DNA of 64,000 nucleotides, from the NCBI RefSeq assembly GCF_009914755.1, contig NC_060932.1, one strand, 5' to 3'. The DNA comes from the human T2T-CHM13v2.0 reference genome, Homo sapiens. Shown piece by piece: positions 19,062 through 27,900 of the stretch (the first letter of the stretch is position 1; the number at the start of each line of letters is the position of its first letter). Below the pieces are notes generated by a model. The model saw nothing but the letters and a program-made list of their open reading frames with translations, had not been told where the DNA came from and searched no databases. The position numbers were made by a program, and so were the translations under genes.

Positions 19062-20011
19062 ACACTTACTGAACATCTACCACAGACCAAGCACTGTTCC
19101 ACCATCTTGAATCTATTGACTCATTGACTCATCCAACCACCCTACAAGTTATATCAAGTTATATCCTCCCTATTTTCAAGATGATGAAATTAGGAAAAGT
19201 TAAGTAATTTCTCCAACAATGCATATCCTTAGCCTGGATTCTCCAGAGAGCCAAGAGGGAGGAAGGGAGGGTGGGATCCGCCCCAAGCTGGTTATCACTA
19301 AATGCATCTTCTTGACCTGGTCAGACTGTCCGCCTAGAAGCTTCTTAAGGTGTGACTAATGACTGTGAGTCTGGGGCAGGAGGATGCCTGGGTATGAGCG
19401 CTGAGTAGGGTCCCCAGGAAGCCCCAGGGCAGAAGATAAGAGGAGCCCAAGTGAGCCTGAGGCGGGGCACGGCCAGGCTGACTGCTGGAGTCAGTGGGAG
19501 TCTGTGCAGAGCTGGTCGCCACCTCTGAGGCTGGCACAAGAGACAGGCGAACTCGAAAAAGCATGCAGTCGGGCAAAGTCGGGTATGTTACAAGCCTACG
19601 ATGTCATGGGGCTAGTCTTTCTCTCCTTGTGTGAAAGACGTGGTTCCCATTCCTGACCAACCACAGGGAGGCATGCATTGTGAGCTAGTTAGCTCCTGGT
19701 GGGAACAGGCTTACACAAATCCACACATATGTTCTGTTCCAGTCTACGGCCAATGCCTGTCTTGGAGGAAGAAACGACCCAAGTACAGGGAAGCTGCAGC
19801 TTTCTGCTCAGGACTGCCAGCATGTGGAGCTTCCAGGTCTAGGGTGGATGAGACACTTCCCCAGGGAACTCCCTCTGGCTAGATGATTGAAGATGTTAAC
19901 GATGCATATAGTTGCACCCAGCCATGCTCACCAGGGGAGAAAAATGCTGCTGCCCCCACCAAGCAAGGGTCTTTCAAGGAGCTCCTAGTCAGGCTTGTGT
20001 TTTCAAATCTG

Positions 20012-20018
20012 ACACACA

Positions 20019-20054
<36 letters not shown>
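20012..20054. repeat. (CA)n microsatellite
   Basis: Direct reading. Confidence 0.95.
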
Positions 20055-20056
<2 letters not shown>

Positions 20057-20363
20057 GGCCAGGCACAATGGCTTCTGCCTGTAATCCCAGCACTTTGGGG
20101 AGGCTGAGGTAGGTGGATCACTTGAGGTCAGGAGTTCAAGACCAACCTGGCCAACATGGTGAAACCGCATCTCTACTGAAAATACAAAAATTAGCCAGGC
20201 ATGGTGGCAGGCGCCCATAATCCCAGCTACTTAGGAGGCTGAGGCAGGAGAATTACTTGAACCTGGGAGGCAGAGGTTGAACTGAGCCAAGATTGCCCTA
20301 CTGCACTCCAGCCTGGGGGACAGGGCAAGACTCCTTCTCAAAAAAAAAAAAAGAAAAGAAAAA
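20057..20363 (+). mobile_element. AluS
   Basis: Full dimer with A-tail. Confidence 0.95.
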
Positions 20364-20463
20364 GTTTAGTTCTTTGATTATACAAGTAAATACTTCTCCA
20401 TTAAAAGTAATTTATACTGTTGTAGAAAAATTGGAGGTATAAATACACTTAGAAGTTTGAAGA

Positions 20464-20582
20464 GCTCATCTTCCCTGGTCTATGTCCTCTGCTCCTGGAG
20501 ACCCAGCCTCTGTGGCCCTGTGACCTGCAGGTATTGGGAGATCCCCAGCTAGACGTCATGTCCCCTGAGATGCCTAGAAATG
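20464..20582 (+). pseudogene. Retroposed fragment of exon 1 of a ZNF91/ZNF93-family KRAB-ZNF gene
   Basis: TGTCCTCTGCTCCTGGAGACCCAGCCTCTGTGGCCCTGTGACCTGCAGGTATTGGGAGATCCCCAGCTA...GCCTAGAAATG matches the recalled first exon of this family up to the exon-ending ATG. Confidence 0.75.
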
Positions 20583-20632
20583 GTCTCTTCCCAGGGTGAG
20601 AGAGGAATGAAAACTTAAAGGAAAGAAACTCT

Positions 20633-26751
<6,119 letters not shown>

Positions 26752-26930
26752 GATAATATGACAGGCTAGGAAGAAAGGCAGGTGGAAAATTATTGTCTAA
26801 TGAGCACAAAGCTTTTGTTTAGAATCATGAAAAGTTTCTGGAAACAGATAATGGCATGGTTATACAACACTGTGAATGTATTTACTGCCACCGAATTGTA
26901 CAATTAAAATGGTTAAAATAGTTTTTAAAA
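26752..26930 (+). mobile_element. L1MB 3'-end fragment, putative 3' transduction
   Basis: ATGAAAAGTTTCTGGAAACAGAT...GAATTGTACAATTAAAATGGTTAAAAT, then an A-run and the TSD. Confidence 0.7.
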
Positions 26931-27900
26931 AAAAGTTTGAAGAAGAGAACTATTATCACCTAAAATCTCTCTTCTCCCCAAGATAACCACACTAACATTT
27001 TGGTGTATTCCTTTCCAGGCCTTTCTTTGTAGACATATAAATATAAACTGCATTTTTAAATAAAATGGAGTTGATGATACAAGTGTTTTATTACTCTGCT
27101 TTGTTCTCTTAACATTTTATGATAAATATTTTATTGCCATTAAGAATGCTTCCAAAACACATTATTTATAGCTGAACAATATTTTTTGGATATTCGGGCT
27201 GTTTATAATTTTTCACTCTGATATATGGTGCTGGGATGAAGAGCCTTAAACAGAAGTCTTTGATCACATTTCTGATTACTTCCTTTAGAAGACACTTAAA
27301 AGTAGAATTACTGGGACAAATGATATAAATATTTTAATGAAAATTTTTATTGCCAAATAGTTTCCAGAAATTGACCAATTTACAGTTCTATCTGCATCTG
27401 TCAGTGCAGACACATTGCAAAAACAAGTCAGTATTTTAAATGCTTTTCAGAGTAGCAGGAGGAAATGGTATTTCATTTTTTTTGACTCCTATTTCTTTGA
27501 TTAATGGTTCTATTGACCAATTCTTAATTTGTTGACCGTTTGGATTTCTTCTTTTAAGAACTGCTTGTTCATTTTCTTTGATAATTTTTAAGTTGGTATG
27601 TTAGTATTTTTTATTGACTGGATATAATTAGGAGCTGCTTATTTGTCATGCTCATTGCAAATATTTTTGCCTGTTTTCATTTTACTTTTTACAATTTTTT
27701 ACAATTTTTTATTTTTAAAGGCCAGTCAAATTTAGCAGTGGGTGTCATTTTGCTTTTAACTTGTATTATACAGGGATTTTGTAAATATAGCTGGTTTGGG
27801 GACTTTTCTTTGTTTTACATGGTTAAATCTAACAAGAGTTACCTTTGTGATTCCTCCCATGATCTCATGCTTATAAAGTTCTCTCCATCCCAAGATCAGT
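26931..27900 (-). mobile_element. Ancient L1ME 3' region (continues from ~20380-20463)
   Basis: AAGATAACCACACTAACATTTTGGTGTATTCCTTTCCAG and AGTAGAATTACTGGGACAAA motifs. Confidence 0.65.

What the first reader, a model, noticed from the sequence alone, without database searches (positions are those of the whole stretch)
20464..20632. L1 apparently launched from the promoter of a ZNF91/ZNF93-family KRAB-ZNF gene (spliced exon-1 capture)
Seen: the leader matches the recalled first exon of ZNF91-subfamily genes. Similarity ends at GCCTAGAAATG (20582), where that exon splices, followed by 50 bp of unrelated sequence and then the L1 start. Established: ZNF93 represses L1PA6-PA3, ZNF91 represses SVA, and SVA_F1 arose by splice capture of MAST2 exon 1. 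The ~1 kb 5'UTR here keeps the segment near 21400-21535 that younger L1s deleted. Inference: a source L1 in a KZNF intron was transcribed from its own repressor family's promoter, a possible silencing-escape route that may define an unrecognised chimeric L1 lineage.
Basis: partly seen in the sequence, partly recalled or inferred. Interest (0 to 1): 0.9.

Follow-up and report, generated by a model that had tools for sequence, protein, structure and literature searches.

The report
L1 carrying a spliced KZNF first exon
A dead full-length L1 upstream of SFRP1 was copied from one hybrid RNA that began at the first exon of a chr19 KRAB zinc-finger gene; this rare kind of event was first catalogued in 2026, and this copy is not in that catalogue.

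Summary
Window 20465-20582 is a retro-copy of exon 1 of ZNF91-subfamily KZNF genes. The best match is chr19:22190911-22191031 at 90%, where the exon ends ATG|GT.

The "50 bp of unrelated sequence" (20583-20632) is not unrelated. It matches chr19:22197100-22197149 at 94%. That site lies 6.1 kb into intron 1 of the same gene, directly after a ...TTCTAG acceptor.

A full-length, ORF-broken L1PA follows (20633-26729). After it comes a roughly 180-nt 3' transduction, 91% identical to an old L1 3'UTR on chr20, then an A-run. An 11-bp target-site duplication, AAGTTTGAAGA, flanks the whole 6.47-kb unit.

This is one retrotransposition of one chimeric RNA. My preferred source is an L1, now lost, that sat in KZNF intron 1 and was read from the KZNF promoter (about 0.65). 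Joining in trans is the main rival.

No second copy of the leader-L1 junction exists, so there is no lineage. However, chr6 and chr4 hold independent KZNF-exon-1::L1 chimeras.

The class is in print: Law & Burns 2026 list 17 cases, one from ZNF681. None of my three loci is in their Table S5. I rate this a new member of a known kind.

The parts
20453..20463 (+). 5' copy of the target-site duplication, AAGTTTGAAGA
   Evidence: this is the longest exact match between 20385-20470 and 26700-27300; 1 of 5000 shuffles gave an 11-mer at both expected places, and 257 of 5000 gave one anywhere.
20464..20582 (+). Retro-copy of KZNF (ZNF91-subfamily) exon 1, from the transcription start to the ATG that ends the exon. 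Position 20464 (G) may be untemplated.
   Evidence: 90% identity to chr19:22190911-22191031, with 39 other paralogous hits; the genomic homologues continue with a GT donor. The chr4 chimera starts at the same base.
20583..20632 (+). 50 nt from intron 1 of the same KZNF gene, starting at an AG acceptor. The last 16 nt (AAAGGAAAGAAACTCT, preceded by CTT) are the inferred 5' target-site duplication of the lost source L1.
   Evidence: 47 of 50 positions match chr19:22197100-22197149, preceded by ttctAG. Six further paralogues keep the same stretch; only 3.0% of positions in that intron have TTAAA[AG] placed 7-20 nt upstream.
20633..26729 (+). Full-length L1PA body: 5'UTR 20633-21658, ORF1 start at 21659, both ORFs broken.
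   Evidence: 87-90% identity over 1-1028 of the 5'UTR to 39 other L1 copies; the ORF1 frame is only 123 aa and ORF2 is in pieces of 259, 121 and 392 aa; the 5' end is complete.
26730..26747 (+). First, short A-rich tail of the L1
   Evidence: Read directly. The chr20 homology begins at 26748.
26748..26926 (+). 3' transduced segment: a partial copy of the 3'UTR of an old L1 found at chr20:51297187-51297361. It contains ATTAAA at 26903-26908.
   Evidence: 92% identity to chr20, next best 83% (40 of 810 candidates scored); 90.9% over 175 nt. On chr20 the old L1's ORF2 end lies collinear upstream and the 3'UTR continues past the window's end point.
26927..26932 (+). Second A-tail. The run of 8 A's spans 26927-26934, and its last two A's overlap the target-site duplication.
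   Evidence: Read directly.
26933..26943 (+). 3' copy of the target-site duplication, AAGTTTGAAGA

Best explanation
Window 20464-26932 (6,469 bp) is one L1-mediated insertion copied from one chimeric RNA. The proposed history has three steps.

Step 1 (inferred). An L1PA next to an old L1 3'UTR of the chr20:51297187 type read through its own poly(A) site. It acquired a roughly 180-nt 3' transduction ending at an ATTAAA signal.

Step 2 (inferred). A copy of that tagged L1 landed, in sense orientation, in intron 1 of a ZNF91-subfamily KZNF gene. The gene is the one now at chr19:22190911-22227835, or its ancestor. By a recalled gene map it is probably ZNF257; I could not verify the name. The landing site was 50 nt downstream of a usable AG acceptor, at a CTT/AAAG endonuclease-type site.

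Step 3 (anatomy shown, order inferred). Transcription from the KZNF promoter spliced exon 1 (ATG|GT) to that acceptor. It then ran through the 50 nt of intron and the whole L1, and was polyadenylated at the transduced ATTAAA. The L1's own proteins inserted this RNA on chr8, producing the AAGTTTGAAGA duplication.

The copy carries no KZNF promoter, left no leader-bearing offspring, and is now dead. I put the single-event, spliced-KZNF-leader part at about 0.9. The confidence of 0.65 given below is for the cis model with an intronic source.
For: 1. Both pieces of the leader have their best genome-wide matches in one gene. They lie on the same strand, in the right order, 6.1 kb apart.
2. The joint runs exactly from a GT donor to an AG acceptor.
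3. That locus is a real KZNF gene. The KRAB-A exon is at about 22211222 and the zinc-finger exon at 22226308-22227835.
4. The L1 starts at its complete 5' end with no A-tail between leader and L1. No target-site duplication flanks the L1 alone; the longest match there is 7 nt.
5. The 11-bp duplication abuts the leader start and follows the second A-run.
6. The 3' segment is a partial copy of a chr20 sequence at 91-92% identity, against 83% or less for all other family copies. It ends about 18 nt after ATTAAA.
7. The leader's last 16 nt begin at CTT/AAAG. A site of this kind at that distance occurs at only 3.0% of positions in the same intron.
8. The independent chr6 chimera shows the same arrangement: an intron-1 acceptor, 77-78 nt of intron, and TTT/AAAAAG 14 nt before the L1 start, where the baseline is 1.8%.
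9. Copy-to-source identities of 90%, 94% and 91% agree with one another. The roughly 10-12% pairwise divergence of this L1 from its nearest relatives also indicates an old insertion.
Against: - No L1 lies after the homologous 50-nt stretch in the chr19 gene or in the 6 paralogues examined.
- No L1PA lies at the chr20 site. The model therefore needs two lost intermediates.
- The 3' transduction points to a chr20-type source, not a chr19 one. A one-step trans model explains this more cheaply.
- The chr8 target reads TTAG/AAGT, a weak endonuclease motif.
- The gene assignment rests on 90-94% identity within a family of similar paralogues.
- Only 40 of 90 candidates were scored.
- The argument from an endonuclease site in the spacer was made after seeing the sequence. 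Reading by eye only, with no motif scan, I saw no clear site of this kind in the chr4 spacer or in the published ZNF681 spacer.
Confidence: 0.65

Rival explanations
1. Joining in trans. A full-length L1 RNA, transcribed from a lost L1 at the chr20-type site and carrying its 3' transduction, was reverse-transcribed to its 5' end. The enzyme then switched template to an alternatively spliced KZNF transcript (exon 1 plus an intron-1 alternative exon) and copied it to its cap. Alternatively, the two RNAs were ligated beforehand.
For: - It needs only one lost source element and explains directly why the 3' tag is of chr20 type.
- No KZNF paralogue holds an L1 at the junction site.
- The leader-L1 joint is not a splice site.
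- The two intron-1 acceptors are conserved across paralogues, so such alternative exons may exist in normal transcripts.
- Law & Burns report that 15 of their 17 donor genes lack an intronic L1 and consider RNA recombination in trans (PMC13174262, sections 13 and 20, read). U6/L1 chimeras show that such joining does occur.
Against: - The junction sits 16 nt after a CTT/AAAG site. Under a random junction this is expected at 3.0% of positions. The chr6 case repeats the pattern at a 1.8% baseline.
- In both verified cases, exon 1 is followed by intron sequence rather than the canonical KRAB-A exon. In contrast, 11 dispersed KZNF retrocopies align straight across the canonical exon 1-exon 2 junction. 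That query was itself the canonical form, so this comparison is biased.
- Published template-switch chimeras mostly carry 5'-truncated L1s (PMC13174262, section 10 passages). This L1 is full length.
Confidence: 0.25
2. The KZNF leader works as a heritable promoter module, as MAST2 exon 1 does in SVA_F1. On this reading the chr8 copy descends from another leader-bearing L1, for example one that sat at the chr20 site.
For: - It would explain a chr20-type 3' tag together with a chr19 leader using a single lost intermediate.
- Law & Burns note promoter marks on some captured first exons (section 13, read).
Against: - Only the window itself covers the whole 169-nt leader (1 of 40 scored hits) or the leader-L1 junction (1 of 8 hits).
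- No other copy of the 3' tag is attached to an L1.
- The leader starts at the same base as the independent chr4 chimera. This fits a fresh start at the KZNF gene's own start site.
- The piece contains nothing upstream of the transcription start.
Confidence: 0.05
3. Coincidental neighbours. On this reading the KZNF-like 169 bp was already at the chr8 site, or was inserted separately, and an L1 landed next to it.
For: None found.
Against: - The duplication flanks the composite, not the L1 alone.
- There is no A-tail or duplication between leader and L1.
- The L1 begins at its exact 5' end.
- The leader is spliced, so it came from RNA.
Confidence: 0.03

Closest known systems
mRNA/lncRNA::LINE-1 5'-transduction chimeras (Law & Burns, Cell Genomics 2026, PMC13174262). 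I read sections 13 and 20-23 and all three parts of Table S5.
   Same: - First exon(s) of a gene lie in sense orientation directly on the 5' end of a near full-length L1.
- The composite is flanked by a target-site duplication and ends in a poly(A) tail.
- The donor gene usually has no surviving intronic L1.
- One of the 17 entries is a KZNF: ZNF681 exon 1 at hg38 chr3:94441985-94449213.
   Different: - This chr8 locus is not in Table S5. The term 'chr8' occurs 0 times in that file, and all 17 rows were read.
- Here the exon is followed by 50 nt of the same gene's intron starting at an AG acceptor. That maps the presumed source site and argues for cis rather than trans splicing.
- This copy also carries a 3' transduction from another chromosome.
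RAP1GDS1/L1PA2 promoter co-option (same paper, section 21)
   Same: An intronic L1 is transcribed from the host gene's promoter, with cis-splicing of upstream exons onto sequence just 5' of the L1.
   Different: In that case the source L1 still exists in the intron and gave two offspring. Here the source is missing and there is a single copy.
SVA_F1 (MAST2 exon 1 capture). Passages from Hancks & Kazazian 2016, PMC4859970, read.
   Same: A first exon is spliced onto a non-LTR retrotransposon and retrotransposed.
   Different: SVA_F1 became a propagating subfamily. This leader is a singleton, and the L1 is autonomous and complete.
U6/L1 and other template-switch or ligation chimeras (passages in PMC13174262, sections 6 and 10)
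   Same: The insertion is bipartite, with a cellular RNA copy 5' of L1 inside one target-site duplication.
   Different: Those usually join a full small RNA to a 5'-truncated L1. Here a spliced Pol II leader is joined to a full-length L1.
L1 3' transduction (described in PMC4859970, passages)
   Same: There are two A-tracts, a downstream poly(A) signal, the duplication follows the second tail, and the parental sequence is found elsewhere.
   Different: No L1 remains at the parental-type chr20 site.

Membership tests
First-exon::L1 5'-transduction chimera | Non-L1 sequence directly abuts the L1 5' end, in sense, with no intervening A-tail | tested here: met
   the leader ends at 20632 and the complete L1 5' end starts at 20633.
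First-exon::L1 5'-transduction chimera | A target-site duplication flanks the composite, not the L1 alone | tested here: met
   the 11-bp AAGTTTGAAGA lies at 20453-20463 and 26933-26943. The best match next to the L1 start alone is 7 nt.
First-exon::L1 5'-transduction chimera | [quoted passage not shown] | tested here: met
   exon 1 up to ATG|GT is joined to sequence that follows an AG acceptor 6.1 kb downstream.
First-exon::L1 5'-transduction chimera | ORF2p endonuclease motif (TT/AAAA-like) at the insertion site | tested here: inconclusive
   The site reads TTAG/AAGT, which is only a weak match.
First-exon::L1 5'-transduction chimera | Leader and L1 arrive together in cross-species alignments | not testable with these tools
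   No other primate genome is held for this window (header).
ZNF91-subfamily KZNF exon 1 | Homology to the shared first exon of the 19p12 / 7q11.21 cluster genes, ending at the ATG donor | tested here: met
   35 cluster hits; 26 of 31 loci show a GT donor. KRAB-A and zinc-finger exons lie downstream. The family name and the gene name ZNF257 are recalled, not tested; one search returned no named human hit.
Heritable chimeric subfamily (SVA_F1-like lineage) | Several copies at different sites share the same leader-element junction | tested here: not met
   only the window itself covers the junction.
L1 3' transduction | Unique sequence lies between two A-tracts, ends after a poly(A) signal, has a parental copy elsewhere, and the duplication follows the second tail | tested here: met
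Cis 5' transduction from an intronic source L1 | A source L1 is present at the mapped intron position | tested here: not met
   no L1 follows the 50-nt stretch in any of the 7 cluster loci, that is the chr19 gene plus 6 paralogues. The source could be a lost allele, so this lowers the model but does not exclude it.

The most novel reading that the evidence does not exclude
The first introns of ZNF91-subfamily KZNF genes may have been recurrent launch pads for L1. At least four independent events exist, involving L1s of different types: window chr8, chr6:25072574-25079240, chr4:155446470-155452210, and the published chr3 ZNF681 case. Each put the same paralogous first exon on a full-length L1. 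In the two I could map, the spacer is intron-1 sequence that begins at a conserved acceptor and ends one duplication-length after an endonuclease-type site. If the excess over other gene families is real, L1s repeatedly used the promoters of their own repressor family. Those promoters are active in the same early-embryo and germline cells where L1's own promoter is being shut down.
Probability: 0.25. Interest if true: 0.7.

Novelty: new member of a known kind. Interest (0 to 1): 0.45.

Why it matters
L1 5' transductions have been called 'almost non-existent' (Hancks & Kazazian 2016, passages read). The first catalogue lists 17 mRNA/lncRNA cases and leaves open whether the exons are joined in cis or in trans.

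This copy adds an informative case. The exon is followed by intron sequence of the same gene, starting at an acceptor. That points to a specific, now empty, intron position as the source site. The 3' tag from another chromosome records an earlier step in the element's history.

A targeted look found three KZNF-exon-1::L1 chimeras that are absent from Table S5. This suggests the published screen may under-count such events. I have not tested why these three were missed; one possibility is that leaders from multi-copy gene families are hard to map. It also raises the question of whether the KZNF repressor clusters are favoured donors.

Tried and rejected
- Naming the chr19 gene. A protein search with its zinc-finger exon listed only non-human relatives at 66% identity or less. 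The name ZNF257 therefore rests on a recalled gene map. Supporting that map, two minus-strand T2T exon-1 hits lie 72.6 kb apart. If the upper one is ZNF681, whose hg38 exon-1 position is in Table S5, the T2T-hg38 offset is about +140 kb; identifying the lower one as ZNF675 rests on recall.
- Classifying all dispersed exon-1 copies. The core-motif scan gave 71 hits with 0 in the control. Of these, 31 lie outside the chr19 and chr7 clusters. I could classify only 9: three L1 chimeras and six processed pseudogenes.
- The chr4 spacer (27 nt) matched nothing in the loci I held. Its origin is unknown, and its target-site duplication is weak: AAAAAAATTTT plus mismatches.
- A duplication flanking the L1 alone: none longer than 7 nt.
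- A second copy of the 3' tag attached to an L1, or any such copy on chr19: none among the 40 scored of 810 candidates.
- Literature. One search gave nothing specific. One search (zinc finger gene, LINE-1, chimeric, first exon, intronic L1, retrotransposed) found nothing on KZNF-L1 chimeras beyond Law & Burns.
The 1,026-nt 5'UTR is consistent with it only by recall. A review passage (PMC4982230) confirms that ZNF93 suppressed older L1s until L1PA3 lost the target.

Full report
WHAT IS THERE

The window is T2T chr8:41478001-41542000. Reading 19900-21700 and 26400-27100 shows the following order:
- an Alu;
- unique sequence;
- the 169-nt leader, 20464-20632;
- an L1 that begins GGGCTTCCAAGATGGCC at 20633;
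- the L1 3' end, ...TTGAAGTATA, with a short A-tract at 26729-26747;
- about 180 nt of non-L1PA sequence;
- a run of eight A's;
- unique sequence again.

THE LEADER

A search of the window's own genome with 20464-20632 scored 40 of 90 candidates.
- Apart from the self match, 30 hits are on chr19 at 19.96-24.24 Mb and 5 on chr7 at 65.67-66.21 Mb.
- Four hits are dispersed: chr6, chr9, chr4 and chr12.
- All cover only query positions about 2-121.
- The best is chr19:22190911-22191031(+) at 90%; the rest are 81-88%.

At that locus the match ends ...GCCTAGAAATG|GTGAGAG. Of the 31 loci I aligned, 26 continue with a GT donor.

Downstream on the same strand lie a KRAB-A exon at about 22211222 and a zinc-finger exon at 22226308-22227835. 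This is therefore exon 1 of a canonical KZNF gene. By a recalled gene map it is probably ZNF257. A protein search returned no named human hit, so the name is unverified.

THE "UNRELATED" 50 NT

Window 20582-20631 matches chr19:22197100-22197149(+) in 47 of 50 positions. That is 6.1 kb downstream of the exon-1 match on the same strand. The chr19 sequence immediately before it reads ...ttgttttgtgattctAG, a good acceptor.

Six further cluster loci keep the same stretch (86-90% identity). Five of them lie 2.4-9.9 kb downstream of an exon-1 hit on the same strand. In all seven, intron sequence follows. There is no GT donor and no L1 there.

So exon 1 was spliced to an acceptor inside intron 1 of the same gene. 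The junction with the L1 is not a splice junction.

THE L1

- Its first 1,028 nt align end to end, at 87-90%, with 39 other L1 copies (40 of 7,351 candidates scored).
- Related copies begin with the same ...TTCCAAGATGGC start. Four were shown, out of 11 loci scanned.
- The frame from the ORF1 start is only 123 aa, and ORF2 is in pieces.
- The element is full length and dead. I did not test the subfamily call of L1PA6.

THE 3' SIDE AND THE BOUNDARIES

Window 26748-26922 is 90.9% identical to chr20:51297187-51297361; one search gave 92%. The next-best family copies are 83% or less, among 40 scored of 810 candidates.

On chr20 this stretch is the 3'UTR of an old L1. That element's ORF2 end lies collinear upstream, and its 3'UTR runs on past the point where the window's copy stops. 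chr20 is therefore the parental type, and the chr8 piece is a partial copy.

The chr8 piece stops about 18 nt after an ATTAAA at 26903-26908 and is followed by A8.

Directly after that lies AAGTTTGAAGA (26933-26943). The same 11-mer ends at 20463, one base before the leader. In shuffles, an 11-mer match anywhere arose in 257 of 5,000 trials. One at both expected places arose in 1 of 5,000; I set those place criteria after seeing the match. No duplication flanks the L1 alone; the longest match is 7 nt.

The insertion is therefore 20464-26932. It was made from a single RNA: KZNF exon 1, 50 nt of intron, the L1, a chr20-type tag, and poly(A).

HOW IT AROSE

Preferred model: cis (about 0.65). An L1 already carrying the chr20-type tag sat in sense orientation in KZNF intron 1. 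Transcription from the KZNF promoter spliced exon 1 to the nearest usable acceptor and ran through the L1.

Support for the cis model:
- Both leader pieces come from one gene, in order.
- The leader's last 16 nt begin at CTT/AAAG. This looks like the source element's own 5' target-site duplication. Only 3.0% of positions in that 20.2-kb intron have TTAAA[AG] placed 7-20 nt upstream.
- The independent chr6 case repeats the pattern (see below).

Against the cis model:
- No L1 is found at the mapped intron site or at the chr20 site. Two intermediates must have been lost.

Main rival (about 0.25): the L1 RNA came from the chr20-type site and was joined in trans, by template switch or ligation, to an alternatively spliced KZNF transcript.

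Only the window covers the full leader or the junction.

The identities to the source loci are 90%, 94% and 91%. Using recalled substitution rates, these point to an event tens of millions of years old.

RELATED EVENTS

Of the four dispersed exon-1 hits, chr9 and chr12 are processed pseudogenes: exon 1 is joined to the KRAB-A exon.

The chr6 chimera, chr6:25072599(+):
- It consists of exon 1, starting about 25 nt further upstream, then 77-78 nt, then a full-length L1PA.
- The whole unit is flanked by AAAATTTT[G/T]CAAACTG.
- The spacer matches 19 cluster loci on chr19 and chr7, plus one locus each on chr3 and chr10.
- In four loci where I could pair it with an exon-1 hit, the spacer lies about 1-2 kb into intron 1.
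- In 10 of the 12 loci I held, it follows ...TTTAG.
- It ends 14 nt after TTT/AAAAAG, where the baseline is 1.8%.

The chr4 chimera, chr4:155452092(-):
- It consists of exon 1, starting at the same base as in the window, then 27 nt, then an older L1.
- The family 5' end of that L1 is marked by 29 of 39 hits starting at the same query position.
- Its target-site duplication is weak.

Wider scan. A core-motif scan found 71 exon-1 copies, with 0 in the control. Of these, 31 lie outside the two clusters. I classified 9; the other 22 could not be fetched.

LITERATURE

- Hancks & Kazazian 2016 (PMC4859970; passages) call L1 5' transductions 'almost non-existent'.
- Law & Burns 2026 (PMC13174262; sections 13 and 20-23 and all of Table S5 read) describe 17 mRNA/lncRNA::L1 chimeras in hg38.
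  - Most are first exons on near full-length L1s. One carries ZNF681 exon 1, at chr3:94441985-94449213.
  - They discuss cis- versus trans-splicing, promoter co-option, and escape from KZFP and HUSH silencing.
  - Their table has no chr8 entry. None of its rows lies near the positions I expect in hg38 for the chr6 and chr4 loci (about chr6:25 Mb and chr4:152-155 Mb); that conversion from T2T is my estimate and was not checked.
- My searches found no other report of KZNF-L1 chimeras.

VERDICT

The kind is already described, there is no lineage, and the silencing-escape claim is untested. What is new is an uncatalogued, doubly transduced member whose leader maps a lost intronic source site, plus a hint that KZNF genes are recurrent donors.

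Noticed in passing
L067/L068 = chr6:25072574-25079240 (T2T), + strand: A second, independent KZNF-exon-1::full-length L1PA chimera. It has a 16-17-bp target-site duplication, a 77-78-nt intron-1 spacer that starts at a conserved acceptor, and no 3' transduction. No Table S5 row lies near its estimated hg38 position.
   Followed up: yes
L069/L070 = chr4:~155446470-155452210 (T2T), - strand: A probable third chimera: KZNF exon 1 starting at the same base as in the window, then 27 nt of unknown origin, then a full-length older L1. Its target-site duplication is weak. No Table S5 row lies near its estimated hg38 position.
   Followed up: partly
Genome-wide: There are 31 copies of the KZNF exon-1 core outside the chr19p12 and chr7q11 clusters. 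At least 6 are processed pseudogenes. Twenty-two are unclassified and might include more L1 chimeras.
   Followed up: partly
KZNF intron 1 of paralogues (loci L002-L038, L061): Two short intron-1 stretches are conserved across paralogues. One lies about 1-2 kb after exon 1 and the other about 2.4-10 kb after it. Each is preceded by a good AG acceptor. They may be alternative 5' exons, but I could not check this against annotation.
   Followed up: partly
window 20633-21381: The first 750 nt or so of the L1 5'UTR are not in the hub's list of masked repeats, which resumes at 21382. Yet they align at 87-90% to thousands of L1 candidates.
   Followed up: no
window 20580-20618: The KZNF start codon retained at the end of exon 1 opens a 12-codon upstream ORF (MVSSQGERGMKT*) that ends before the L1. 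By eye, without a translation run, the chr6 and chr4 leaders also seem to give short upstream ORFs.
   Followed up: partly
window 20013-20371: A (CA)n run is followed by an Alu with an A-rich tail, just upstream of the insertion site. It is not part of the finding.
   Followed up: no
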